From Candidatus Omnitrophota bacterium (GTDB lineage: Bacteria > Omnitrophota > Gorgyraeia > Gygaellales > Profunditerraquicolaceae): DNA of 64,000 nt. This document shows positions 15,926 through 60,838 of the stretch, piece after piece (position 1 is the stretch's first letter; each line of letters starts with the position of its first letter). The notes beneath the pieces were generated by a model, which was given only the letters and a program-made list of their open reading frames with translations, made no database searches and was not told the DNA's origin. Where the stretch lies: NCBI GenBank assembly GCA_050012075.1, contig JBEKHW010000004.1:8864-72863 (forward strand). The letters run 5' to 3'. A program made the translations under genes and the position numbers.

Positions 15926-17065
15926 ATGGATAAGAAACGTATCGCAATCGTTACGTACGGCTGCCAGATGAATGTTAGGGATTCGGAAGTAATTTGCGGC
16001 CTTCTCCAGAAGGCTGGGTTTAAGATTACCGAAGATGAGAAGGCGGCGGATATAGCTATCTTTAATACCTGTTCTGTGCGCCAGCACGCAGAAGATAAGG
16101 TTTGGTCGGCAGTGGGTATGACAAAAGCTGGAATTATCGGTATCGTAGGATGTATGGCGAATAATTACCGCGAGGCGATTTTCGAGAAGGCGCCAAAAGT
16201 GGATTTTGTGGTTGGGACATCTGATATTGCCAAGATGCCCGGCATAATTAAGGAAATACAAAAACATAAAGGCGGATTTCTTGCCAAGAAGATTTATGAA
16301 ACAGACGCGGATTACAGGGAAGATGAGATTTACCATACAGGTTTTCATCTGGATAAAAATCACGCTTTTGTGGTGATTTCTGAGGGGTGCGAGAACTATT
16401 GTTCATACTGCGTGGTCCCTTATGTGCGCGGGAAGTTGCGCTCACGTAATCATCAGGATATCCTTGATGAAATAAAAGAGGATATTGACTCCGGAATAAC
16501 GAAAATAACCCTGCTTGGGCAAAATGTCAACGCATATGTTTCAAGCGCACAACCCACAGCGCATAACGCACAACGAACAAGATTTGTCGAGTTGTTAGAA
16601 ATGGTAAACGATGTAAAGGGCCTTAAAGAATTCACTTTTGTCACTTCTCATCCAAAAGATACTTCGGTAGAATTATTTAAGGCGATGGCAGAGCTGGAAA
16701 AATTAAAAAAACACCTTCACCTTCCGGTGCAGTCAGGTTCAGACAGAATTCTAAAGCTAATGAACCGCGGTTACACCAGAAGATTCTATTTGGATTTGAT
16801 AGAGGATTATCGTAAAATAGTAAAAGACGGGGCGCTCTCTACTGATATCATTGTCGGTTTTCCCACTGAAAATAAAGACGATTTCCAGGATACTTACGAC
16901 CTGGTAGGAGGTGTCGAGTTTGATGCTGCCTACATATTCAAGTATTCCGTAAGGCCGCATACGCAGGCAGCCAGTATGCCTGATGATGTAGAGAAGAAGG
17001 AGAAAGAAAGAAGACACGGGTTAATTTTGGAATTACAGAAGGAGATATCACGAAGAAAGAAATGA
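15926..17065 (+). CDS. MiaB/RimO-family radical-SAM methylthiotransferase lacking the C-terminal TRAM domain
   Basis: The MTTase N-domain has three Cys. The radical-SAM motif CENYCSYC is present. The protein ends after the radical-SAM core with a Lys-rich tail (379 aa). Confidence 0.75.
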   Translation: MDKKRIAIVTYGCQMNVRDSEVICGLLQKAGFKITEDEKAADIAIFNTCSVRQHAEDKVWSAVGMTKAGIIGIVGCMANNYREAIFEKAPKVDFVVGTSDIAKMPGIIKEIQKHKGGFLAKKIYETDADYREDEIYHTGFHLDKNHAFVVISEGCENYCSYCVVPYVRGKLRSRNHQDILDEIKEDIDSGITKITLLGQNVNAYVSSAQPTAHNAQRTRFVELLEMVNDVKGLKEFTFVTSHPKDTSVELFKAMAELEKLKKHLHLPVQSGSDRILKLMNRGYTRRFYLDLIEDYRKIVKDGALSTDIIVGFPTENKDDFQDTYDLVGGVEFDAAYIFKYSVRPHTQAASMPDDVEKKEKERRHGLILELQKEISRRKK

Positions 17066-23629: not shown

Positions 23630-25525
23630 ATGGCAAAAGTAATCGGTATCGATTTAGGGACTTCTAATTCGGCAGCTGCGGTAATGGAAGGCGGCAGGCC
23701 TGTGATTATACCTTCTGCGGAAGGCGCGGGTGTGGCTTCCGGAAAGGCATTCCCTTCTTATGTCGCTTTTACAAAGGACGGCCAGCGTCTTGTCGGTGAA
23801 CCTGCCCGCAGGCAGGCGGCAATTAACGCTGAAGGGACAATCCAGGCTGCCAAGCGCAAGATGGGCACGGACGATAAATTCAAGGTTTTTGGCAAGGAGT
23901 ATACGCCGCAGCAAATCTCCGCGTTTATCCTGCAGAAGATAAAACAGGACGCGGAGGCGTACCTGGGCGAGAAAGTTGAAGAGGCAGTAATTACCTGCCC
24001 TGCTTATTTCAATGATAACCAGAGGACCGCTACAAAAGACGCCGGAGAAATAGCGGGCTTAAAGGTGTTACGCATAATCAATGAGCCTACGGCAGCATGC
24101 CTTGCCTATGGTTTAGAGAAGGCCCAAAAAGCGCAAAAGATCATGGTTTTTGATTTAGGCGGCGGGACCCTGGATGTCACCATAATGGAGATGGACCAGG
24201 GTGTTTTTCACGTGCAATCAACTTCAGGCGATACGCAGCTGGGTGGCACAGATATGGACAAGGTTCTGCTTGAGTATATCGCCGGGCAGTTTAAGCGCGA
24301 AACTGGAATAGAGCTTCTGAATGATAAAATGGCAGTGCAAAGGGTGCGCGAGGCAGCAGAAAAGGCCAAGATCGAATTATCTTCGACTGTCAGCACGGAT
24401 ATCAATCTTCCTTTTATTACGGCGGATGCGACAGGGCCTAAACATTTGACTATGAATATTACCCGCGCAAAACTGGAAGACCTGATTTCTCCGATTATTC
24501 AAAGGTGCCGCCATCCAATGGAACAGGCGCTCTCGGATGCAAAGTTGACCAGTAGCGAAATCGACCGCATTATCATGGTGGGTGGTCCAACAAGGATGCC
24601 TATCGTGCAGAAGTTCGTCGAAGATTACGTGGGCAAGAAGATAGAGCGTGGGGTTGACCCTATGGAATGCGTTGCTTTGGGTGCCGCGATTCAGGCAGCG
24701 ATCATTACCGGAGAGGTCAAAGACGTTCTTCTTCTGGATGTTACCCCGCTTTCCCTGGGTATTGAAACATTGGGAGGGGTAAACACAAAATTAATAGAGA
24801 GGAACGCTTCTATCCCTACTCAAAAAAGCCAGGTTTTTTCTACTGCGGCGGATAACCAGACCGCGGTTACCATCAGGGTCCTGCAGGGTGAGCGCCAGAT
24901 GGCAGACGATAACGTGGAATTAGGAAGGTTTGACCTGGTGGGTATACCGCCAGCACCCAGGGGTGTACCGCAAATTGAAGTAAAATTTGATATTGACCGG
25001 GACGGGATTGTGCATGTTTCAGCAAAGGATTTAGGCACCGGTAAAGAACAATCTATCCGTATCACCGCGCCCAAGAAACTCTCCAAGGAAGAAATAGACA
25101 AGATGGTCAGGGACGCGGAGAAATTTGCGGCTGAGGATACCAAGAAAAAAGAAGAGGTTGAAACTGTCAATCAGGCAGATACCCTGGTTTATGCCACTGA
25201 AAAATCCCTTAAGGATTTCGGGGATAAAGTCAGCCAGAGTGAGCGTGCCGACATAGAGGCCAGGACAAATGATTTGAAGGCAGCGATTAAAGATAAAAAC
25301 GTGGACAGGATTAAGAAAGGCATGGAAGATTTGACCCGCGCTTCGCATAAATTAGCCGAAGAGATATACAAGCAGGCAGGCGCAAAGCAGCAGCAGTCTC
25401 AGCAGCCAGGGCAGGGCCAAGGGCCTCAGCAGGAAGCACAAGAAGAGCCAAAGGGCTCCGCAGGCGGAAAAGAAGATGTGATTGACGCGGAGTTCAAGGA
25501 AGAGGACGATAAAAATAGTAAATAG
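23630..25525 (+). CDS. dnaK: Molecular chaperone DnaK (Hsp70)
   Basis: [19 protein letters not shown] and a C-terminal Gly/Gln-rich tail ending EEDDKNSK. Confidence 0.95.
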
Positions 25526-25592
25526 TTCATAGTTGATAGTTCATAGTAAAATATTGTACCATTAACCATGAACAATGAACTATGAACCATTA
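25521..25592 (+). repeat. Family-A palindromic element copy 1: 2x AGTTCATAGT, an A-rich loop, then 2x inverted units
   Basis: TAGTTCATAGTTGATAGTTCATAGT...CATGAACAATGAACTATGAACC. It starts at the dnaK stop codon. Confidence 0.6.
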
Positions 25593-25596
25593 TATA

Positions 25597-26754
25597 ATGA
25601 GCACTAAACGCGACTATTATGAATTACTGGGTGTAAAAAAGAACGCAACCCTTGATGAGATAAAGAAAGCTTACCGGGAGTTGGCGTTGAGGTTCCATCC
25701 TGACCGCGTTCCCCACGAGCAGAAAAAGGAAGCGGAAGAGAAATTTAAAGAGATCTCCGAGGCCTACGCAGTCCTGTCAGATTCCCAGAAGCGTGCGCTT
25801 TACGATCAGTACGGGCATTCCGGAATAGACCAGAAATACGCCTATGAGGATATATTCAAAGGCGCTGATTTTTCAACTATTTTTCAGGATTTAGGTGATT
25901 ACGGCGTTGGAGGAGGGCTTTTTGAAGATATTTTTAGCGACCTGGGGTTTGATATTTTCGGAGGAAGGTCTTCTTCCCGTGGTACGGGAAGGCGCAGGGG
26001 CCGTGATTTACAGATAGCAGTTTCTATTACCCTCGAGGAAGCAGCTACGGGAACTGAAAAGACAATAAGCGTCCCCCGTTATGAAACTTGTTTTACCTGT
26101 TCAGGAAGCGGCGCAAAGCCGGGGACAAAAAGAATTACCTGTCCTCAGTGCAGAGGTTCCGGCCGCACGGTCGTATCAAACGGATTTTTCCAAATGGCAC
26201 AGACCTGTTCACGCTGCAGAGGAGAGGGCTCTACGATTCAGGCGCCCTGCCCTGATTGCCGTGGTGAAGGCAGGACAAAAGTCACCCACAAGATAAAGGT
26301 CAAGATACCTGCCGGAGTAGACAATAACTCAAGCCTCAGGGTCAGGGGTGAGGGTGAGGTAGGTGCTGCAGGCCATGGAGACCTGTATGTAGTGATTGAA
26401 GTAATGCCCCATTCTGTTTTTGAGCGGCATGATAACGATATAATTACTCAGGTGGGTATAAGTTTAAGCAAGGCGATCCTGGGAGGAGAAATAGAGGTCC
26501 ATACGTTAAACGGGAAAGCCAGTATGAAAATTCCGCAAGGCACGCAATCAGGAAGGATTTTCAGGTTAAAGGGGAAAGGGATACCGGATTTGCACGGTAG
26601 GGGGATAGGGGACGAGTTAATAAAAGTAGATGTCCAGATACCTGTTAGGTTGACACCCGAACAGCGTAAGCTGATTGAGGAGTTTGCCAGGCTTTCGGGG
26701 GAACAGGTAAATTCAGAAACTTTTACAGAAAGAATAAAGAAAACTTTTCGATAG
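25597..26754 (+). CDS. dnaJ: Molecular chaperone DnaJ
   Basis: J-domain with HPD, a Gly/Phe region, and four CxxCxGxG zinc-finger repeats. The internal Met ([13 protein letters not shown]) is preferred as the start. Confidence 0.9.
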
Positions 26755-26824
26755 TTCATAGTTAATAGTTAATGGTTCATGGTACGAGTCTTACTATGAA
26801 CTATGCACCATGAACTATGAACTA
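26752..26824 (+). repeat. Family-A palindromic element copy 2
   Basis: TAGTTCATAGTTAATAGTTAATGGTTCATGG...CTATGAACTATGCACCATGAACTATGAACT. It starts at the dnaJ stop codon. Confidence 0.6.
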
Positions 26825-26849
26825 AATTCAATAAGGAGTTGGTTAAAAA

Positions 26850-51757: not shown

Positions 51758-51834
51758 GGGCGCATAGCTCAGTTGGTTAGAGCGCTACACTCACATTGTA
51801 GAGGTCGAGGGTTCAATTCCTTCTGCGCCCACCA
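51758..51834 (+). tRNA. tRNA-Val (anticodon CAC), CCA encoded
   Basis: Acceptor GGGCGCA/TGCGCCC, D-loop AGTTGGTTAGAGC, anticodon loop CTCACAT, T-arm GGTTCAATTCC, 3' ACCA. Confidence 0.85.
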
Positions 51835-51861
51835 TATTGCTTTTTATAAAAAAGGAGAAGA

Positions 51862-52584
51862 TTGTTGATAACCGTAAACCTAAAAGCGCAACTGGAAATA
51901 CTAGTGAAGCTGCAGGCGATAGACACCGAAATCTACAATCTCAAGGCCGAAAAGGAAGCTAAGCCGCAGCAGCTTAAAGAGATAGAAGCCTTGTTTGAAG
52001 AGAAGAAACAGAAGATGGCTTCCCTTGAAAAGAACCTGCTGGATTTGCAGAAAGAGAGGAAAGATAAAGAACTGGAGTTAGGTTCTAAAGAGGAATCAGG
52101 CAAGAAATTGCAGTCCCAGCTTTATTCCTTAAAGACCAATAAGGAATATCAGACGATGTTGCAGCAGATACAGGATGCCAAGGCAGACGTTTCTTTAATT
52201 GAAGATAAAATCTTGGCTATCCTGGATGAGACTGATAAGTTAAAGATAGAAGTAGAAAAGGAGAAGGCACGGCTTAAAGAAGAAGAAAAGGTTTTTTCAA
52301 GCCAAAAGAATGCAATCGAGGCCAGGATCAGAGAAATAGACGACCATCTTGCGCAATTAGAGACGCAGAGGAAGCAGGTTATCCCGGAAGTAGATGTAAA
52401 AATACTGGCACAATATGATAGGATCCTTAAGAGCCGCGATGGTTTGGCGATTGTAGCCGTTATAAATAATTCCTGCAAAGGCTGCAATATGTTCGTGCCG
52501 CCGCAGGTAATAAACCTTATAAAGATGTATGAGCGCATGATCACCTGCGAGGTGTGCAACAGGATATTATATACCAATGAATGA
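51862..52584 (+). CDS. COG1579-type coiled-coil / C4 zinc-ribbon protein
   Basis: Long coiled coil with a C-terminal CKGC...CEVC ribbon. Overlaps rnhA by 8 nt. Confidence 0.6.
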   Translation: MLITVNLKAQLEILVKLQAIDTEIYNLKAEKEAKPQQLKEIEALFEEKKQKMASLEKNLLDLQKERKDKELELGSKEESGKKLQSQLYSLKTNKEYQTMLQQIQDAKADVSLIEDKILAILDETDKLKIEVEKEKARLKEEEKVFSSQKNAIEARIREIDDHLAQLETQRKQVIPEVDVKILAQYDRILKSRDGLAIVAVINNSCKGCNMFVPPQVINLIKMYERMITCEVCNRILYTNE

Positions 52585-52993
52585 ACTGGAGATCTACATT
52601 GACGGCGCATCGAAAGGTAACCCCGGGCCAAGCGGGATAGGGGTGGTTATCTGTAAAGAAGGCCAAACTATTAAGAACATTTCTAACTATATCGGCAATG
52701 CCACCAACAACGTTGCGGAATACACCGCTCTTATTTTCGCTCTGCAGGAGGCCTTAAAGATGAGGGCGGAGATCCTAAAAATAAATACCGATAGCCAGTT
52801 ATTATATAGCCAGCTTAACCGTACCTATAAAGTAAAAAGTGAGAATATTATCGGCCTGTTTAAAGAGGCTTCGCATTTACTTTCGGTTTTTAAAAAAGTT
52901 TGCATTACCAATATTCCCCGCGAGAAAAACCGGGGCGCGGATAAATTAGCCACACAGGCGGTAAAGAAACACTTAAAGAAAACGATTCTTTGA
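52577..52993 (+). CDS. rnhA: Ribonuclease HI
   Basis: IYIDGASKGNPGPSGIGVV, the type-1 RNase H catalytic core, with E/D residues conserved. Confidence 0.8.
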   Translation: MNELEIYIDGASKGNPGPSGIGVVICKEGQTIKNISNYIGNATNNVAEYTALIFALQEALKMRAEILKINTDSQLLYSQLNRTYKVKSENIIGLFKEASHLLSVFKKVCITNIPREKNRGADKLATQAVKKHLKKTIL

Positions 52994-53045
52994 TAAGTGG
53001 ACAGGCCCCGTTAGACGGGGCAGTCCTGTTAGATAAAGTCGTCTA

Positions 53046-53552
53046 ACGGGGCAGGTAGGATGTGGCCGCCCGCCATTGAATAAATGGCGGGAGGAAAGTC
53101 CGGGCTCCAGAGGACAGCGTAACGGGTAACGCCCGTCTCCGCCGGATAATACCGGTGGAAGGATCTCCGCCATAATACATGGCGGACCCGCCAATATTTT
53201 TGGCGGGAGAGCCACAGAGACGAGCAACCGTTGCTTCGCAACGGAGTTAATAGTTGATAGTTCATAGTTGATGGTTTAAAGGTAAAACTAAGAACCATGA
53301 ACAATGAACCATGAACTCCCGCGCGAAGCGCGGGGAGGTGAAACGAGGCAATCTCTACGCGGAGCAAGGCCCAATAGGAGATGAGCGCTGGTCCGGCGCA
53401 TCCCTGTCAAGCTATTCAATAGCAGGCGGGGATTTAATCTCGGGTAAGCTGCTTGAGCCCCTACGGCAACGTCGGGGTCGAGAGGAATGGCCACTTTGGA
53501 TGCGGTTATTCGTATCGAGACAGAACCCGGCTTATCCTACCTGTCCCACTTA
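53046..53552 (+). ncRNA. rnpB: RNase P RNA (bacterial type A) carrying an internal repeat-element insertion
   Basis: Conserved blocks GGAGGAAAGUCCGGGCUCC (53089-53108), GGUGAAA, GGAGCAAGGCCCAAUAGG, GCUGCUUGAGCC and ACAGAACCCGGCUUAUC (53520-53536). P1 pairs 53048-53059 with 53536-53547. Confidence 0.8.
53249..53317 (+). repeat. Family-A palindromic element copy 3, located inside rnpB between the P11 and P12 regions
   Basis: TAGTTGATAGTTCATAGTTGATGGTT...AACCATGAACAATGAACCATGAACT has the same unit structure as the dnaK/dnaJ copies. Confidence 0.55.
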
Positions 53553-53584
53553 TTACGAATATGCAGGAACTAGTCACCAAGATA

Positions 53585-53645
53585 CCATGTCACCACGTCA
53601 CAAGTAAAATCTTTGACTTGTGACTTTGTGACGTTGTGTCATTGC
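53585..53645 (+). repeat. Family-B palindromic element (GTCAC units): TGTCACCACGTCACAAG, an A-rich loop, CTTGTGACTTTGTGACGTTGTG
   Basis: Inverted tandem GTCAC/GTGAC units, read directly. Lies between rnpB and yebC. Confidence 0.55.
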
Positions 53646-53674
53646 GACCATTATTAATTTAACGGGAGGCTAAA

Positions 53675-54433
53675 ATGTCTGGTCATTCAAAATGGAAGAC
53701 GAATAAAGGCAAAAAGATGGCGGCCGATGCCAAAAAAGGCGCTGCCTACACGAAAATCATCAAAGAGATTACTGTTGTCGCGCGCGAAGGCGGCGGTAAC
53801 CCCGATACTAACCCTAAGTTAAGGACCGTTATTGCCAGGGCGCGTGAACTTAATATGCCTTCTGATAACGTTAAGATGGCGATAAAAAGAGGCACTGGTG
53901 AATTGCCGGGCGTAATTTATGAATCGGTAGTATATGAAGCATACGGTCCAGGCGGGGTAGCTATTCTGGTTGAGGCGCTTACCGATAATAAGAACCGCAC
54001 TACTGCTGAATTGCGCAATATCATGTCTAAAAAAGGCGCTAATATGGCGGGCGCGGGCTCAGTAAGCTGGATGTTCGCCAAGAAGGGTTATATCACCGTT
54101 GATAAGACACAGGCGAAAGAAGACGATCTTATGGTGCTTCTTGATTCCGGGGCGGAAGATATAAAAGCAGAAGACCCGAAACAATTCGAGATTATCACCT
54201 CTACCGAAGGGCTGGAAAAGGTAAAAGCTGCAATGGAAGCGCAAAAGATCCCCTATATTTCGGCAGAAGTAACAATGATTCCTTCTTCTACCATTAAACT
54301 CGCAGGTAATGAAGCTAAACAGCTGTTATCGCTTATTGAGGCATTAGAAGAACATGATGACGTACAACAGGTCTCCGCTAACTTTGACATCCCTGATGAA
54401 ATCCTGGAACAGGTAGCCGCAGAGTCAGAATGA
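53675..54433 (+). CDS. yebC: YebC/PmpR-family DNA-binding regulator
   Basis: MSGHSKWKT N-terminus with conservation along the full length. Confidence 0.9.
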   Translation: MSGHSKWKTNKGKKMAADAKKGAAYTKIIKEITVVAREGGGNPDTNPKLRTVIARARELNMPSDNVKMAIKRGTGELPGVIYESVVYEAYGPGGVAILVEALTDNKNRTTAELRNIMSKKGANMAGAGSVSWMFAKKGYITVDKTQAKEDDLMVLLDSGAEDIKAEDPKQFEIITSTEGLEKVKAAMEAQKIPYISAEVTMIPSSTIKLAGNEAKQLLSLIEALEEHDDVQQVSANFDIPDEILEQVAAESE

Positions 54434-54912
54434 TAATATTGGGGATCGATCCTGCTTTGACGGTAACCGGCTACGGCGTTATCAATGTATCAGGCAGAGA
54501 GATCTCTTTGATAGAAGCCGGGGTCGTGACTACCTCTAGCAAGGATAACACTCCTCATCGGCTAGACAGGATTTACGAAGCAGTAACCAAACTTATCTCT
54601 GAAACCAGTCCCGATGTAATGGTGCTGGAGAAGTTATATGCGCATTATCGTCATCCTACTACCGCGTATTTGTTGGGACAGGCGAGGGGTGTGATTTGTT
54701 TGGCCTGCGCAAATAAAAATCTGCCGTTAGTAGAATATGCGGCTACGCGCGTCAAAAAGGCAGTTGTCGGAAAAGGGCTTGCTTCTAAATATCAGGTGCA
54801 GCGGATGGTTGCCAGCATGCTTAATATAAATAGATTGCCTAAATACACGGATGTGACTGATGCTTTGGCATTAGCCATTGCTCACAGCTATATAATGAGG
54901 TTCAAGATATGA
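54430..54912 (+). CDS. ruvC: Holliday junction resolvase RuvC
   Basis: ILGIDPALTVTGYGV with catalytic D/E residues. Coupled to yebC and ruvA. Confidence 0.85.
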   Translation: MIILGIDPALTVTGYGVINVSGREISLIEAGVVTTSSKDNTPHRLDRIYEAVTKLISETSPDVMVLEKLYAHYRHPTTAYLLGQARGVICLACANKNLPLVEYAATRVKKAVVGKGLASKYQVQRMVASMLNINRLPKYTDVTDALALAIAHSYIMRFKI

Positions 54913-55535
54913 TATCGCGGATCTCCGGAAAGGTGATTGAAAAGTGCGCGAGTTCCTTAATCATTGATACGGGAGGTATATGTTATGAAGTTTTGATTCC
55001 CGCCATGGTAATGGAGCGCATTCAGGAAAGCATAGATCCTGACGGCAGGATTTCCCTGGTAACATTTCATTATTTACAGGTTGAGCCGTCAAAAACTTTT
55101 CCGGTCCTGGTCGGTTTTGCCAATGACGTTGAGAGGAGTTTTTTTGAAGTTTTTATTACTGTTTCGGGGATAGGGCCACGGGCGGCATTAAAAGCCCTGA
55201 ATAAGCCGATCCCATTGATAGCGCGCGCAATAGATGAAGGGGACTTAAGTTTTTTAAAGTCGCTTCCTGGAATAGGAGAGCAGCGGGCGAAGGAGATCGT
55301 AGCTAAACTGCAGAATAAAGTCGGTAAATTTGCCCTCATAAAAGATAAGAGGATAACCTCTGATTCTATAAAGGCAAGGGATATAACCGAGGAGGCATTG
55401 GCAGTGCTTATGCAGCTGGAATACAAAAAGGCAGAGGCGCTTAATATGATAAAACGGGCGCTGGAGATTGCCCCGGATATACAGACGGCAGAGGAAGTTT
55501 TAAATGTGGTCTATAAACAAAGGAAGGCAAAATAA
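54909..55535 (+). CDS. ruvA: Holliday junction branch-migration protein RuvA
   Basis: OB-fold N-terminus, a tandem HhH motif (LPGIGEQRAKEIV), and a C-terminal domain III. Confidence 0.85.
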   Translation: MISRISGKVIEKCASSLIIDTGGICYEVLIPAMVMERIQESIDPDGRISLVTFHYLQVEPSKTFPVLVGFANDVERSFFEVFITVSGIGPRAALKALNKPIPLIARAIDEGDLSFLKSLPGIGEQRAKEIVAKLQNKVGKFALIKDKRITSDSIKARDITEEALAVLMQLEYKKAEALNMIKRALEIAPDIQTAEEVLNVVYKQRKAK

Positions 55536-55537
55536 CG

Positions 55538-56137
55538 ATGTCGGAAGATAATTTAAAATCGGTGATAGAGGCATTGCTTTTTGCCAGCGAAAAACCCATG
55601 ACCATTGAGCAGGCAAGGAAGGTGCTTGATAATCTAGACGCTACCAAGGTGCGCCAGGTTATCGAAGAGATACAGGCGGATTATGCGGCGGCCAATCGCG
55701 GTATACGCATTGTTGAAGTCGCGGGCGGTTTTCAGATGATTACCGCGCCTGGTTTTGCTTCATTTTTAAAAAAGCTTTTTAAGGAGCGCCATGTGGAGCG
55801 GCTCTCTAAACCGGCTCTCGAGACCTTGGCGATTATTGCTTATAAGCAGCCCCTGACGAAACAGGAAATAGAGTCGCTTCGGAACGTCAACGTCGATGGA
55901 GTCATGAAAAATCTTTTGGATAAAGACCTGATACGCATTTCCGGAAGAAAGAAAGCGCCGGGCAGGCCCTATGTATTCGGCACCACGCGTCAGTTCCTGG
56001 AATATTTTGGTTTAAAATCGCTTGAGGAATTACCTAAAATGGAAGAGTTTTCTACTCTCGTGGCTAATACCACAGGGGAATCGGAAATAGAGAAAATAGA
56101 GGAGGATATAAATGAGCCTCAAAAAACTGCGCAGTAA
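55538..56137 (+). CDS. scpB: Segregation and condensation protein ScpB
   Basis: Tandem winged-helix, with ALLFASEKPMT and SKPALETLAIIAYKQPLT. Confidence 0.8.
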   Translation: MSEDNLKSVIEALLFASEKPMTIEQARKVLDNLDATKVRQVIEEIQADYAAANRGIRIVEVAGGFQMITAPGFASFLKKLFKERHVERLSKPALETLAIIAYKQPLTKQEIESLRNVNVDGVMKNLLDKDLIRISGRKKAPGRPYVFGTTRQFLEYFGLKSLEELPKMEEFSTLVANTTGESEIEKIEEDINEPQKTAQ

Positions 56138-57173
56138 AATAGATAACCTGGACAGAAAAATAACACAGTTGCTTAACCTGCGGGCGAAAGTCGCTTTGGA
56201 TATTGCCAGGCAGAAACAGAAAAGCGGGATAAGCGCCTATGCGCCTGAGAGGGAAAGGGTGGTGTTAGAAAAAGTAGCTAATTTAAGCCGCGGTCCTCTG
56301 ACTAAAGATGCCCTGGAGGCAATTTACCGGGAGATTATGTCTGCGAGCTTAAGCATGAATGAACCTTTGGTGATAGCCTATATGGGGCCGCAGGCAAGTT
56401 TCAGCAATTTCGCCGCCCTAAAAAGGTTCGGTTCCCAGGTGAAATATGCCCCTTGCGAAAGCATTACGGATGTTTTCGAGGAGGTAGAAAAGGGCAATGC
56501 CGAATACGGGGTTGTCCCGGTTGAGAATTCCATTGAGGGTGCTGTAACTTATACGCTGGATATGTTCGTGGATTCGGATTTAAAAATATGCAGCCAGATT
56601 ATTCTGGATATTTCGCATAGCCTCTTAGCAAATTGTCCCAAGGGTAAGATTAAACGGGTATATTCTAACCCCCAGGTTTTGGGGCAGTGCCGGATATGGC
56701 TTCAGGAGAATCTTCCCGGTGTAGAAACAATCGAGGTATCCAGTACAACGCGAGCCGCGCAAATTGCAGCAAAAGAAAAAAACAGCGCTTGTATCGCTTC
56801 GATCCTGGCGGCTAAAATTTATAAATTAAAGGTGTTGGCTTCAGATATCGAAGATTCGCCGCATAATATTACCCGTTTTTTTGTCATTGGTAAAAATGAC
56901 GTCGCACCCACTAGACACGATAAAACTTCAATCCTTTTTTCCATCAAAGACAAGGTAGGCGCACTGCATGATATGCTCGTGCCATTCAAAAAATACGGCA
57001 TTAACCTGACAAAAATCGAATCGCGGCCTTCCAAGAAAAAGGCCTGGGATTATTATTTCTACCTTGATTTAGAGGGCCACTACGATGATCCCAAGGTCAG
57101 GAAAGCTTTAAGAGAATTAGAAAGTAAATGCAAGTTCTTGAAAATTTTAGGATCGTATCCGACAGGAGAATAA
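56112..57173 (+). CDS. pheA: Bifunctional chorismate mutase / prephenate dehydratase (P-protein)
   Basis: N-terminal CM_2 domain, a PDT domain with the ESRP motif, and a C-terminal ACT domain. Confidence 0.85.
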   Translation: MSLKKLRSKIDNLDRKITQLLNLRAKVALDIARQKQKSGISAYAPERERVVLEKVANLSRGPLTKDALEAIYREIMSASLSMNEPLVIAYMGPQASFSNFAALKRFGSQVKYAPCESITDVFEEVEKGNAEYGVVPVENSIEGAVTYTLDMFVDSDLKICSQIILDISHSLLANCPKGKIKRVYSNPQVLGQCRIWLQENLPGVETIEVSSTTRAAQIAAKEKNSACIASILAAKIYKLKVLASDIEDSPHNITRFFVIGKNDVAPTRHDKTSILFSIKDKVGALHDMLVPFKKYGINLTKIESRPSKKKAWDYYFYLDLEGHYDDPKVRKALRELESKCKFLKILGSYPTGE

Positions 57174-57177
57174 ATAA

Positions 57178-58257
57178 GTGAATTTAGTCAGAAAGCATAT
57201 ATTAAAAATCGACCCTTATGAGGCCGGTAAACCTATTGAAGAGATCAAGCGGCAACTGGGCCTTCGCGAGGTGATTAAGCTCGCTTCTAACGAGAATCCG
57301 CTCGGGCCATCGCCAAAGGCAATAGCGGCAATCAAGAAGAACCTTTCTGTGCTTAACCGCTATCCGGACAGTAACGGTTTCTATCTAAAAAGACGCCTGG
57401 CCAGGTTTTTCGGTCTTACGCCCTCGAATATTGTCCTGGGCAATGGTTCTGATGAGCTTATTGATATTATCATCAAGACTTTCGTAGAAGAGGATGAGCA
57501 GATTATCACTGCTGATTTTACATTCCTGGAATATAAAATCATATCTTCTGTCAAGGGCCGAGCTGTAATTACCGTGCCGTTACGATACTTTAAGTATGAC
57601 CTGGAAGCGATTAAAAGAAGGATTGATAAGAAAACCAAAGTCATCTTTATAGCCAATCCGAATAATCCGACCGGCACATACGTTACTAAATACGAGATCG
57701 AGGAATTTATGCGCGGCCTTCCGGATAATATATTACTTGTTTTGGATGAGGCCTACGACGCTTTTGTTGATGTGAATGATTTTCCACGCAGCCTCGCTTA
57801 TATCCGCAGGAATAATGTCGTAGTGCTTAAGACATTTTCCAAGGCCTATGGCTTGGCAGGCCTACGGGTCGGTTTTGCATTGGCAAGGCCGGAACTTTGC
57901 GCGTATATGGAGATTGCCCGCCAGCCCTTTAATGTGAATTCTCTCGCCCAGGTAGCTGCCGAGGCCGCGCTAGACGACAAAGGATTCCTTAACCGGACAA
58001 GAAAGACGATCCTGGAAGGCAAGGGCTATCTTTACGATAACTTAAAGAGAATGGGGCTTGCTTATGTGCCAAGCGTAACAAACTTTATCCTGGTCGATGT
58101 TGGCAGGGATTGCGTAAGCTTGTTCAAAGATATGCTTAAATTCGGGGTAATCGTGCGCGATATGAAGCAATACGGGTTAAAGAATTTTATAAGAGTTACG
58201 ATAGGGACAAAAAAAGAAAATGAAAGGTTTATAAGGGTTCTTGCGAAAGTCCTTTAG
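57178..58257 (+). CDS. hisC: Histidinol-phosphate aminotransferase
   Basis: Class-II aminotransferase with the PLP lysine in FSKAYGLAGLRVG. Confidence 0.85.
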   Translation: MNLVRKHILKIDPYEAGKPIEEIKRQLGLREVIKLASNENPLGPSPKAIAAIKKNLSVLNRYPDSNGFYLKRRLARFFGLTPSNIVLGNGSDELIDIIIKTFVEEDEQIITADFTFLEYKIISSVKGRAVITVPLRYFKYDLEAIKRRIDKKTKVIFIANPNNPTGTYVTKYEIEEFMRGLPDNILLVLDEAYDAFVDVNDFPRSLAYIRRNNVVVLKTFSKAYGLAGLRVGFALARPELCAYMEIARQPFNVNSLAQVAAEAALDDKGFLNRTRKTILEGKGYLYDNLKRMGLAYVPSVTNFILVDVGRDCVSLFKDMLKFGVIVRDMKQYGLKNFIRVTIGTKKENERFIRVLAKVL

Positions 58258-60116: not shown

Positions 60117-60808
60117 TTATCGCTATTGACGGGCCTGCAGGCGCAGGAAAGAGCACTATCGCAAAGAAGGTAGCCTGGAAACTGGGCTTTCTTTATATTG
60201 ATACGGGTGCCATGTACAGGGCGCTTGCTTTAAAGGCTATAAAAGAAAATGTTGATATCGCTAGTACCCATAAAATAATCAGTATGACTGCAAGGGCCAC
60301 TATTAATTTAATCAATGACCCGGACGGCACTCTCCAGGTGATGCTTGACGGAAAAGATGTAGGAAGCCAAATACGGCAGCCGGCAATAACCAAAGTCGTT
60401 TCAGATATAGCAAAAATAAAGGAAGTGCGCCAGGTCATGGTGGGCCTGCAGAGAGAGCTGGGGAAGCGCGGCAATAGTGTCCTGGATGGGCGCGATATAG
60501 GCACAGTGGTTTTTCCCAATGCCGAGAAGAAGTTTTACCTGGATGCTGATTTTGCTGAGCGCAGCCGCAGGCGTTATAAGGAGTTGATTGAGGCAGGCCA
60601 GCAGGTGACGCTGGAAAGTGTACAAGCTGATGTAAAGAATCGCGATAATATTGATTCTACGCGCGAGGTAGGGCCATTAAAGCAGGCAGAAGACGCGATT
60701 TATATAGATAGTACTAATATGAGTATTGAGGAAGTAGTTGAAACAGTATTAAGGCACATCAAGTCACCAAGTCACAATGTCACCAAGTCACAGGAAAAAA
60801 CTTTGTGA
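60113..60808 (+). CDS. cmk: Cytidylate kinase (C-terminal 17 codons encoded by a Family-B repeat)
   Basis: IIAIDGPAGAGKST P-loop with NMP-binding and LID regions. The tail HIKSPSHNVTKSQEKTL overlaps the repeat. Confidence 0.85.
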   Translation: MIIAIDGPAGAGKSTIAKKVAWKLGFLYIDTGAMYRALALKAIKENVDIASTHKIISMTARATINLINDPDGTLQVMLDGKDVGSQIRQPAITKVVSDIAKIKEVRQVMVGLQRELGKRGNSVLDGRDIGTVVFPNAEKKFYLDADFAERSRRRYKELIEAGQQVTLESVQADVKNRDNIDSTREVGPLKQAEDAIYIDSTNMSIEEVVETVLRHIKSPSHNVTKSQEKTL

Positions 60809-60838
60809 CTTTGTGGCTTGGTGTACTTTGTGACCCTC
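60758..60838 (+). repeat. Family-B palindromic element, large copy: 4x (A)AGTCAC units, GAAAAAA, 4x inverted units
   Basis: CAAGTCACCAAGTCACAATGTCACCAAGTCACAG...CTTTGTGACTTTGTGGCTTGGTGTACTTTGTGAC, read directly. Confidence 0.6.

What the first reader, a model, noticed from the sequence alone, without database searches (positions are those of the whole stretch)
53046..53552. RNase P RNA gene interrupted by a palindromic repeat element
The conserved type-A RNase P RNA blocks are all present on the + strand, spanning about 500 nt instead of the usual 350-400. The blocks are GGAGGAAAGUCCGGGCUCC, GGUGAAA, GGAGCAAGGCCCAAUAGG, GCUGCUUGAGCC and ACAGAACCCGGCUUAUC.

Between the P10/P11-like region (GCCACAGAGACGAGCAA) and a P12-like hairpin (CCCGCGCgaagCGCGGG) there are two extra hairpins. 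One is CCGTTGCttcgGCAACGG. The other (53249-53317) has the same tandem-inverted unit structure, 2x AGTT(C/G)ATAGT then a loop then 2x inverted, as the elements immediately after dnaK and dnaJ.

This looks like a genus-specific mobile or expanding palindromic element that has landed in a structurally tolerant peripheral region of an essential ribozyme. That is unusual and bears on the element's mobility.
Basis: partly seen in the sequence, partly recalled or inferred. Interest (0 to 1): 0.7.

Follow-up and report, generated by a model that had tools for sequence, protein, structure and literature searches.

The report
Heptamer-repeat hairpin inside RNase P RNA
The RNase P ribozyme gene of an uncultured Omnitrophota bacterium carries, beside its peripheral helix P12, a 73-nt hairpin built from tandem 7-nt repeats that also occur after neighbouring genes; this matches what was described in 1997 for heterocyst-forming cyanobacteria, now seen in a second phylum.

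Summary
Window 53052-53547 (+) is a full-length type-A RNase P RNA (Rfam RF00010, 164 bits, E 4e-51). Its P12 region is 113 nt, the longest of 127 Omnitrophota rnpB genes compared (range 4-113). The two relatives with the most similar rnpB cores have 19 and 22 nt there.

The region folds into three hairpins in a row. The middle one (53245-53317) has arms made of tandem heptamers ATRGTTN and their complement. The same unit builds hairpins that overlap the dnaK stop codon and start at the dnaJ stop codon (75-80% pairwise identity; 18 pattern hits against 0.02 expected).

The insert is absent from relatives and sits in a tolerant peripheral position. It is not a rarity, though. Tandem-inverted arrays of 7-8 nt units, mostly unrelated in sequence, are common across Omnitrophota. 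They also occupy P12 or the P19 position of rnpB in other lineages.

This parallels the cyanobacterial STRR sequences in P12 (Vioque 1997). Mobility is not shown: there is no target duplication and the loops are not conserved. Most likely it is a neutral passenger that stays in the mature RNA.

Verdict: new member of a known kind, moderate interest.

The parts
53052..53547 (+). rnpB, bacterial type-A RNase P RNA, 496 nt. P13/P14 are absent, as in its whole subclade.
   Evidence: RF00010, 164.2 bits, E 3.8e-51, model 1-367. rnpB lies upstream of yebC in 63 of 80 Omnitrophota loci.
53228..53244 (+). Hairpin H1, CCGTTGC-ttc-GCAACGG. This is the first of three hairpins between J11/12 (ACAGAGACGAG) and J12/13 (GGTGAAACG). 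It is extra relative to the closest relatives.
   Evidence: MFE fold of 53216-53346; unique in the window; absent in L001, L002, L004 and L007.
53245..53317 (+). Hairpin H2, the tandem-inverted heptamer hairpin. Left arm: AGTT AATAGTT GATAGTT CATAGTT GATGGTT. Centre: 16 nt of degenerate units. Right arm: AACCATG AACAATG AACCATG AACT.
   Evidence: TRF period 7; pattern statistics; fold z -5.6 (+ strand) and -6.3 (- strand); alignment with the dnaK and dnaJ copies.
53318..53334 (+). Hairpin H3, CCCGCGC-gaag-CGCGGG, followed directly by GAGGTGAAACG. This is probably the ancestral P12.
   Evidence: Same position and sequence type as the plain P12 of L007 (CCCGAC-gaaa-GTCGGG-GGTGAAACG), L004 and L002 (CCCGCCA..TGGCGGG-GTGAAACG). 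The assignment is an inference.
25513..25591 (+). Heptamer hairpin between dnaK and dnaJ. The dnaK stop codon is a TAG of the left array.
   Evidence: HSP70 and DnaJ Pfam hits.
26751..26825 (+). Heptamer hairpin directly after dnaJ. The dnaJ stop codon (26752-26754) is the TAG of the first unit.
53573..53648 (+). A second family: a tandem-inverted octamer hairpin (GTCACNNN / NNNGTGAC) between rnpB and yebC.
   Evidence: An orthologous, sequence-conserved hairpin is present in L003, L014 and L067.
60755..60834 (+). Paralogous octamer hairpin overlapping the 3' end of cmk, upstream of lepA.

Best explanation
The window comes from an uncultured Candidatus Omnitrophota bacterium (ENA ERZ27250059, contig k141_267760). 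Positions 53052-53547 encode what looks like its working type-A RNase P RNA.

About 93 nt have been added beside helix P12, a peripheral and length-variable part of the specificity domain. The addition is a short GC hairpin plus a 73-nt hairpin whose arms are tandem heptamers (ATRGTTN)n and their complement.

The heptamer hairpin belongs to a dispersed, STRR-like family of short-tandem-repeat hairpins. On 82 kb of this contig the family has at least four ATAGTT loci, one ATAGGTT variant and two GTCACNNN octamer loci. They lie mostly right at gene ends.

Shown: placement, unit identity, absence in relatives, and how common such hairpins are across Omnitrophota.

Inferred:
(a) The arrays gain and lose units by replication slippage. 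Heptamers are the favoured period, as in other bacteria.
(b) The inverted arm arises, and stays matched, through intrastrand template switching or copying between loci.
(c) In rnpB the hairpin is a passenger that stays in the mature RNA as a solvent-exposed extra helix and does not affect catalysis. This is what is reported for cyanobacterial STRR in P12.
(d) The same hairpin sits inside a presumably essential ribozyme. The family therefore cannot by itself be a strong terminator or a destructive cleavage signal.
For: - Identity and placement of rnpB.
- P12 region: 113 nt, the longest of 127 (range 4-113); 19 and 22 nt in the two closest rnpB cores.
- Same unit at three window loci: 18 hits against 0.02 expected; 75-80% pairwise identity.
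- More loci on the same contig.
- Census of about 1.1 Mb of Omnitrophota DNA. Arrays by period: 5 nt 8, 6 nt 21, 7 nt 93, 8 nt 37, 9 nt 12. An inverted partner lies within 90 nt for 44 of 93 heptamer arrays and 25 of 37 octamer arrays.
- Control in viral contigs: 2 of 122 arrays of the same heptamer have an inverted partner.
- Independent repeat hairpins in P12 of L084 (10-12-mers, z -10.7) and L049 (CGCAAAA), and at the P19 position of L159, L105, L117 and L115.
- Literature. STRR occur in rnpB of heterocystous cyanobacteria. P12 is dispensable there. STRR are 7-bp repeats that form hairpins between genes, function unknown. Heptameric repeats are over-represented in bacteria, and polymerase slippage has been proposed as the cause.
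Against: - No RNA data, so retention in the mature RNA and neutrality are untested.
- Slippage alone does not explain why unlinked loci share one unit.
- Slippage alone also does not explain why the GTCAC octamer hairpin is conserved in sequence at the same site in lineages with only 76-79% YebC identity. That looks like selection or a cognate factor.
- All seven loci on the contig carry the ATAGTT or GTCAC arm 5' on the sense strand. This hints at a strand-specific process or function the model does not explain.
- The heptamer hairpin is not a simple coaxial extension of P12. It sits next to the conserved J11/12 module, where neutrality is less obvious.
- No DNA is available for the 99%-identical strain, so the age of the insertion is unknown.
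Confidence: 0.7

Rival explanations
1. Discrete mobile element. On this view the ~75-nt heptamer hairpin is a non-autonomous transposable unit of REP or MITE type. An enzyme encoded elsewhere (for example a RAYT or IS200-like transposase that recognises hairpins) copies it, and it inserted as a unit into rnpB.
For: - The three copies share overall architecture and length (about 5 left units, a short centre, about 4.5 right units) and are 75-80% identical.
- The rnpB and dnaK copies share the rare unit variant AACAATG at the same place in the right arm.
- The site is empty in relatives. Conversely, an ATAGTTN array sits at ruvA-scpB in L105, where the window has a 2-nt spacer.
- The octamer family has a consensus shared by a paralogue in the window and by orthologues in three other lineages.
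- All copies on the contig have the same orientation.
Against: - No target-site duplication or conserved flank. The centres and loops are not conserved.
- Unit number varies between copies.
- The pta-ackA locus has direct, not inverted, arrays around GC hairpins. The gatC-gatA locus has its arms 170 nt apart. Neither looks like insertion of one fixed element.
- No transposase was found next to any copy.
- Direct arrays of the same unit arise in many unrelated viral contigs.
Confidence: 0.2
2. Intervening sequence. On this view the hairpin is transcribed and then cut out by RNase III, like the IVS hairpins of 23S rRNA. That would leave a two-piece but functional RNase P RNA.
For: - A long, mostly paired stem of about 26 bp sits in a peripheral position.
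- It is distributed sporadically among relatives.
- From general knowledge, RNase P RNA can be reconstituted from separate pieces.
Against: - There is no RNA evidence.
- The stem has a mismatch about every 7 nt, which makes it a poorer RNase III substrate.
- From my memory of Vioque 1997, not re-read here, the cyanobacterial precedent describes STRR as lengthening P12 in the RNA.
Confidence: 0.07
3. Lineage-typical long P12, or an assembly artefact or pseudogene. On this view the extra sequence is an ancestral extension shared by relatives, or it is not real or not functional.
For: P12 length varies widely in the phylum, and one subclade has a conserved 80-86 nt P12.
Against: - The closest rnpB cores have P12 of 19-22 nt. 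No other locus has this sequence in P12.
- A separate Logan assembly is identical.
- The conserved core is intact and scores 64 bits above the Rfam threshold.
Confidence: 0.03

Closest known systems
STRR (short tandemly repeated repetitive) sequences in helix P12 of rnpB of heterocyst-forming cyanobacteria (Vioque 1997, Nucleic Acids Res 25:3471)
   Same: [quoted passage not shown]
- The same units are dispersed at other, mostly intergenic, sites where they form hairpins.
- Related lineages carry unrelated repeats or none. For cyanobacteria this last point rests on my memory of the abstract.
- P12 is regarded as dispensable.
   Different: - Host phylum: Omnitrophota, not Cyanobacteria.
- Unit sequence: ATRGTTN. 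From memory, the classic STRR units are CCCCA(A/G)T, TT(G/T)GTCA and CAACAGT.
- The repeat hairpin stands beside a short P12-like hairpin instead of simply lengthening P12.
- Relatives also carry 8-12 nt units and insertions at the P19 position.
Heptameric simple-sequence repeats in bacteria (GGGAATC in Xanthomonas, GGGGAYT in Nostoc, TAACTGA in Beggiatoaceae, Cyanobacteria and Bacteroidetes)
   Same: - 7-nt period and intergenic location close to start or stop codons.
- Length varies between close relatives.
- Occasional inverted pairs.
   Different: - Those are mainly direct arrays.
- Here about half of the heptamer arrays and two thirds of the octamer arrays are inverted pairs that form hairpins.
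- One of them lies inside a ribozyme gene.
REP/BIME elements and other small palindromic dispersed repeats
   Same: - Short imperfect palindromes.
- Many copies, at the 3' ends of genes and between genes of operons.
- Plausible role in stabilising transcripts.
   Different: - REPs have a fixed consensus that includes the loop region, and their arms are not tandem sub-repeats.
- Here only the 5-6 nt core of each unit is conserved.
- Association with a RAYT gene could not be examined.
Intervening sequences (IVS) in peripheral helices of 23S rRNA
   Same: An extended hairpin added to a variable peripheral helix of an essential structural RNA, with sporadic phylogenetic distribution.
   Different: IVS are excised by RNase III, and no processing data exist here. 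IVS arms are not tandem repeats.

Membership tests
Bacterial RNase P RNA class A (Rfam RF00010) | Covariance-model score at or above the curated gathering score, over the whole model | tested here: met
   164.2 bits against 100; model 1-367; E 3.8e-51.
Bacterial RNase P RNA class A (Rfam RF00010) | Conserved P4 strands and the J11/12 and J12/13 sequences | tested here: met
   GAGGAAAGTCCGGGC, ACAGAGACGAG, GGTGAAACG and ACAGAACCCGGCTTA are all present.
Bacterial RNase P RNA class A (Rfam RF00010) | Helices P13 and P14 in the specificity domain (typical of class A, not universal) | tested here: not met
   GGTGAAACG is followed directly by AGGCAATCTCT (the 3' strands of P11 and P10). The 43 model positions are deleted in L001, L084, L159, L105 and L115 as well. 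This is a subclade trait and does not affect the Rfam assignment.
STRR of cyanobacteria | Tandemly repeated heptanucleotide units | tested here: met
   TRF period 7; 4.6 and 3.6 copies in rnpB; 3.4-5.4 copies at the dnaK and dnaJ loci.
STRR of cyanobacteria | The same unit dispersed at many, mostly intergenic, sites of the genome | tested here: met
   Four ATAGTT loci plus one ATAGGTT variant on 82 kb of the contig. The whole genome is not available.
STRR of cyanobacteria | In rnpB, located in helix P12 and lengthening it | tested here: inconclusive
   The insert lies between J11/12 and J12/13, which is the P12 region. It is predicted to be a separate hairpin between two short GC hairpins, not an extension of one helix. 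L084 and L049 do show a simple extension.
STRR of cyanobacteria | Host is a heterocyst-forming cyanobacterium and the units are those of the described STRR families | tested here: not met
   The best relatives are all Candidatus Omnitrophota MAGs. The unit is ATRGTTN.
STRR of cyanobacteria | The repeats are not needed for catalysis in vitro | not testable with these tools
   Needs an RNase P assay with RNAs that have and lack 53245-53317.
MITE or other transposable palindromic element | Target-site duplication and conserved termini or full-length consensus | tested here: not met
   The flanks of the three copies share nothing beyond the units, and the centres differ.
REP/BIME | Cognate RAYT transposase in the genome; fixed palindrome of about 20-40 nt | not tested
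   Only 82 kb of the genome is available. Gene tables for the three stretches of the contig that were fetched list no transposase family. Most of the contig between them was not annotated here.
rRNA-type intervening sequence | Excision from the mature RNA by RNase III | not testable with these tools
   No transcript data.

The most novel reading that the evidence does not exclude
Omnitrophota as a phylum run an active process that builds hairpins from tandem 7-8 nt units. They appear at gene ends, between tRNA genes and after rnpB, and have repeatedly and independently entered peripheral helices of rnpB: P12 in the window, L084 and L049, and the P19 position in L159, L105, L117 and L115. Some unit families are conserved across genera (the GTCAC octamers), and all copies seen on this contig have the same orientation relative to transcription. 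That points to a dedicated, strand-specific mechanism or binding factor rather than plain slippage. It would be a second, independent occurrence of the unexplained cyanobacterial STRR phenomenon, and would allow comparative analysis of its cause.
Probability: 0.35. Interest if true: 0.65.

Novelty: new member of a known kind. Interest (0 to 1): 0.5.

Why it matters
Repeat hairpins inside an essential ribozyme show which parts of RNase P RNA tolerate large insertions. Here those are the P12 region and the P19 position, in a lineage that has already lost P13/P14.

The insert also limits what the repeat family can do. A copy that survives inside rnpB cannot by itself be a strong terminator or a destructive cleavage signal.

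The origin and function of cyanobacterial STRR have stayed unexplained since 1990. A second phylum with the same phenomenon, hundreds of MAGs and lineage-specific units gives a comparative handle. For example, hairpin load could be correlated with gene content.

On the practical side, these inserts make rnpB up to about 200 nt longer than in related lineages (331-541 nt in the cmscan matches). That can mislead annotation and structure-based alignment.

Tried and rejected
1. Closer relatives, to date the insertion.
   - The GTDB species scan gave at best 91% YebC identity (L001).
   - The JGI metagenome scan gave at best 86%, with no upstream DNA.
   - The 99%-identical YebC (P0002) lies on two ENA contigs for which no DNA is held.
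   - Look-ups with the RNase H-like protein and RuvC returned only copies identical to the window.
2. Reading Vioque 1997 itself. It is not held. Only its title and one citing sentence could be verified.
3. Literature on Omnitrophota repeats or rnpB. No paper has Omnitroph* together with 'RNase P RNA'. The only hit for Omnitrophota plus 'tandem repeats', judging by title and abstract alone, concerns lake microbial communities.
4. Covariation support for the hairpins. None is available, because the paired cores are invariant. This is neither for nor against.
5. RNA strand preference. The + and - strand folds are similar and the better strand differs between copies. That gives no verdict on RNA-level versus DNA-level function.
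6. Terminator scan around rnpB. No terminator-like site at the octamer hairpin and no U-tract. The only hits are the GC hairpin pair inside rnpB.
7. The period-7 array at 16546-16580 (CGCACAA x5). It lies inside a radical-SAM/UPF0004 gene and does not fold (z +0.98), so it is not part of the family.
8. Viral contigs as a possible vehicle. Arrays of the same units are there but are almost all direct, in AT-rich giant-virus and phage contigs. This served as a control, not as a link.
9. A stop codon in every unit as a general rule. It holds for ATAGTT but not for many other units listed.

Full report
**1. What is at the coordinates**

An Rfam scan of the whole window finds three RNAs: two tRNAs and a full-length bacterial class-A RNase P RNA. 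The RNase P RNA lies at 53052-53547 on the + strand (RF00010, 164.2 bits against a gathering score of 100, E 3.8e-51, model 1-367). ARAGORN identifies the tRNAs as tRNA-Met (CAT) and tRNA-Val (CAC).

At 496 nt the gene is about 130 nt longer than the 367-position model. The covariance-model alignment places the surplus in three places:
- after P9;
- in the P12 region;
- in P15-P17.

**2. Source and comparators**

The window is part of ENA assembly ERZ27250059, contig k141_267760 (89 kb). All close homologues of the neighbouring YebC protein come from Candidatus Omnitrophota MAGs. Two contigs of a separate Logan assembly of run SRR7028477 are 100% identical to window 51765-53833 and 53826-57912, so the rnpB sequence is reproducible.

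The rnpB-yebC arrangement is conserved: 63 of 80 GTDB species representatives carry the P4 motif upstream of yebC. With a further 80 metagenome loci, this gave 127 non-duplicate Omnitrophota rnpB genes for comparison.

**3. Where the extra sequence sits**

I measured from ACAGAGACGAG (J11/12) to GTGAAACG (J12/13). By this measure the P12 region ranges from 4 nt (no P12 at all, for example L139 and L018) to 113 nt. The window is the longest of the 127.

The two genes with the most similar rnpB cores have simple P12 hairpins: L002 has 22 nt and L001 has 19 nt.

In the window the region folds into three consecutive hairpins (-49.2 kcal/mol, z -6.9):
- H1, CCGTTGC-ttc-GCAACGG (53228-53244).
- H2, the heptamer hairpin (53245-53317).
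- H3, CCCGCGC-gaag-CGCGGG (53318-53334).

H3 abuts GAGGTGAAACG just as the plain P12 of L007, L004 and L002 does. I therefore take H3 as the ancestral P12, and H1 plus H2 (about 93 nt) as the addition. This is an inference.

The 42 extra nt after P9 (53166-53207) are two further hairpins of the P9 type. A related sequence is present in L033, and many relatives have a similarly enlarged interval. That part is a lineage feature, not part of the finding.

**4. The repeat**

H2 has this layout:
- Left arm: AGTT AATAGTT GATAGTT CATAGTT GATGGTT.
- Centre: 16 nt that align with degenerate units.
- Right arm: AACCATG AACAATG AACCATG AACT.

The same unit, in the same left-right order, builds two other hairpins:
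- 25513-25591. The dnaK stop codon is a TAG of the array.
- 26751-26825. The dnaJ stop codon is the TAG of the first unit.

A three-unit pattern with up to two mismatches hits 18 times, only at these three loci, against 0.02 expected. Pairwise identity over about 75 nt is 75-80%. Each folds well beyond shuffled controls (z -5 to -7), about equally on either strand.

A second family, with octamer units GTCACNNN, forms hairpins at 53573-53648 (between rnpB and yebC) and at 60755-60834 (the 3' end of cmk).

I stitched 82 kb of the contig together. That adds an ATAGTT locus in the pta-ackA spacer and an ATAGGTT locus at gatC-gatA, for seven loci in 82 kb.

**5. The wider picture**

In about 1.1 Mb of Omnitrophota DNA, short-period arrays are dominated by period 7:

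| Period (nt) | Arrays | With inverted partner within 90 nt |
|---|---|---|
| 5 | 8 | 1 |
| 6 | 21 | 2 |
| 7 | 93 | 44 |
| 8 | 37 | 25 |
| 9 | 12 | 1 |

As a control, I searched viral contigs for four-unit arrays of the same two motifs. They are abundant there but almost never paired: 2 of 122 for the heptamer, and none convincing of 99 for the octamer. The hairpin arrangement is therefore a property of these genomes, not of the motifs.

Unit sequences differ between most lineages. Arrays lie within 250 nt downstream of rnpB in 38 of 127 loci. Where an upstream ORF can be assigned, the arrays often start within a few nt of its stop codon.

Other lineages carry their own repeat hairpins inside rnpB:
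- L084 has 10-12-mers in P12 (-63 kcal/mol, z -10.7).
- L049 has CGCAAAA units in P12.
- L159, L105, L117 and L115 have 8-9-mers between the 3' strand of P2 and the 3' strand of P4, the P19 position.

The octamer hairpin after rnpB is conserved in position and sequence in L003, L014 and L067. It consists of paired 5-bp GUCAC/GUGAC blocks separated by unpaired 3-nt spacers.

**6. Interpretation**

- The title of Vioque 1997 was verified from a reference list.
- P12 is cited as dispensable there.
- STRR are described as 7-bp repeats that form hairpins between genes, with unknown function.

Heptameric repeats are known to be over-represented in bacteria, with polymerase slippage as the proposed cause.

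I conclude that H2 is a member of an STRR-like hairpin family that came to lie beside P12. Most probably it persists in the mature RNA as a harmless peripheral helix.

One deduction follows from its location. The family cannot be an efficient terminator or a destructive cleavage site by itself, because a copy survives inside a presumably essential ribozyme and another sits within the dnaK-dnaJ gene pair.

**7. What remains open**

Slippage explains the period and the copy-number variation. It does not explain:
- why unlinked loci share a unit;
- why the octamer family is conserved across genera;
- why all seven loci on the contig have the same orientation.

A discrete mobile element (confidence 0.2) is not excluded. 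It lacks target duplications, conserved loops and a fixed architecture. Excision as an intervening sequence (0.07) cannot be tested without RNA data.

The only very close strain (YebC 99% identical) has no DNA on record. Its gene table shows that the interval containing rnpB is 40 or 96 nt shorter. That suggests recent length change, but the change cannot be located.

**8. Verdict**

It is a new member of a known kind: STRR-type repeats in the RNase P RNA P12 region, here in a second phylum.

No paper in the searchable library mentions Omnitrophota together with RNase P RNA.

Interest is moderate (0.5). The single locus is explained by precedent. The more notable result is the phylum-wide, repeated colonisation of rnpB and gene ends by tandem-inverted 7-8-mers.

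Noticed in passing
window 53573-53648; L003 3915-3977; L014 416-492; L067 1874-1946; window 60755-60834: An octamer (GTCACNNN) tandem-inverted hairpin sits between rnpB and yebC. It is conserved in position and sequence in lineages whose YebC is only 76-79% identical, and has a paralogue at the cmk 3' end. Paired 5-bp GUCAC/GUGAC blocks alternate with unpaired 3-nt spacers. This much conservation suggests a function or a binding factor.
   Followed up: partly
window 53138-53207: There are three consecutive similar hairpins after P8: UCCGCCGG..CCGGUGGA (P9), UCCGCCAU..AUGGCGGA and CCCGCCAA..UGGCGGG. They also resemble P3 (CCCGCCAUU..AAUGGCGGG). This looks like a tandem multiplication of the P9 hairpin. 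A related sequence occurs in L033, and many relatives have an enlarged P4-to-P10 interval.
   Followed up: partly
window 53335-53360; also L001, L084, L159, L105, L115: This Omnitrophota subclade lacks helices P13 and P14: GGTGAAACG runs straight into the 3' strands of P11 and P10. Another subclade (L011, L023, L027, L048, L057) keeps them. Some members (L139, L018, L028, L042) also have no P12. These are very reduced specificity domains.
   Followed up: partly
L159 5787-5867; L105 5746-5855; L117 1399-1510; L115 1010-1075: Tandem-inverted repeats of 8-9 nt units (CACGGATTT, CCACTGAA, ATCTGCGTA) are inserted at the P19 position of rnpB, between the 3' strand of P2 and the 3' strand of P4, in other Omnitrophota lineages. 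The matched rnpB genes in these four loci are 499-541 nt long.
   Followed up: partly
L381 16433-16465 and 16632-16664 (same contig, about 5 kb beyond the window end): An ATAGGTT heptamer array lies directly after gatC. Its inverted partner (AACCTAY x4.7) lies about 170 nt downstream, inside the called gatA coding region. The pair would form a long-range stem enclosing the gatA start codon and its first ~50 codons.
   Followed up: no
L380 146-215 (same contig, about 8.7 kb before the window start): In the pta-ackA spacer, direct (not inverted) ATAGTT arrays flank two small GC hairpins (CCGCCggaGGCGG and CAGCCtacGGCTG). The array starts 2 nt after the pta stop. The whole segment does not fold better than shuffles (z -0.6).
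   Followed up: partly
window 25523-25525, 26752-26754; L105 8556-8558: The stop codons of dnaK and dnaJ, and of ruvA in L105, are TAG triplets of the heptamer array itself. A run of ATAGTTN units carries a TAG in every reading frame within three units, so an array reaching into a 3' end truncates the protein with almost no added tail.
   Followed up: partly
ENA ERZ1426817 (4821-nt contig) and ERZ1426844 (2365-nt contig); no DNA held: Strains with 99%-identical YebC have 585 and 641 nt between the upstream gene's end and the yebC start, against 681 nt in the window. The differences are 96 and 40 nt. Both are multiples of 8, which may or may not be meaningful.
   Followed up: partly
L049 2125-2190: A tandem-inverted heptamer hairpin (GCATATC / CGATAAG) sits between two tRNA genes (2045-2117 and 2196-2269). 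It would therefore be part of a tRNA precursor.
   Followed up: no
window 16546-16580: A period-7 direct array (CGCACAA x5, 75% matches) lies inside a radical-SAM/UPF0004 (MiaB/RimO-like) gene. It has no hairpin potential (z +0.98) and is probably unrelated to the hairpin families.
   Followed up: yes
window 1-64000: Almost all ORFs of 150 aa or more are on the + strand. The few on the - strand all overlap + strand ORFs. GC skew is positive throughout, so the whole window appears co-oriented with replication. Orientation relative to transcription and relative to replication therefore cannot be separated for the hairpins.
   Followed up: no
L201 (IMGVR_UViG_3300045988_165550) and L272: These are the only two of 122 viral-contig ATAGTTN arrays with an inverted partner. 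They form hairpins much like the window's. Their hosts are unknown.
   Followed up: no
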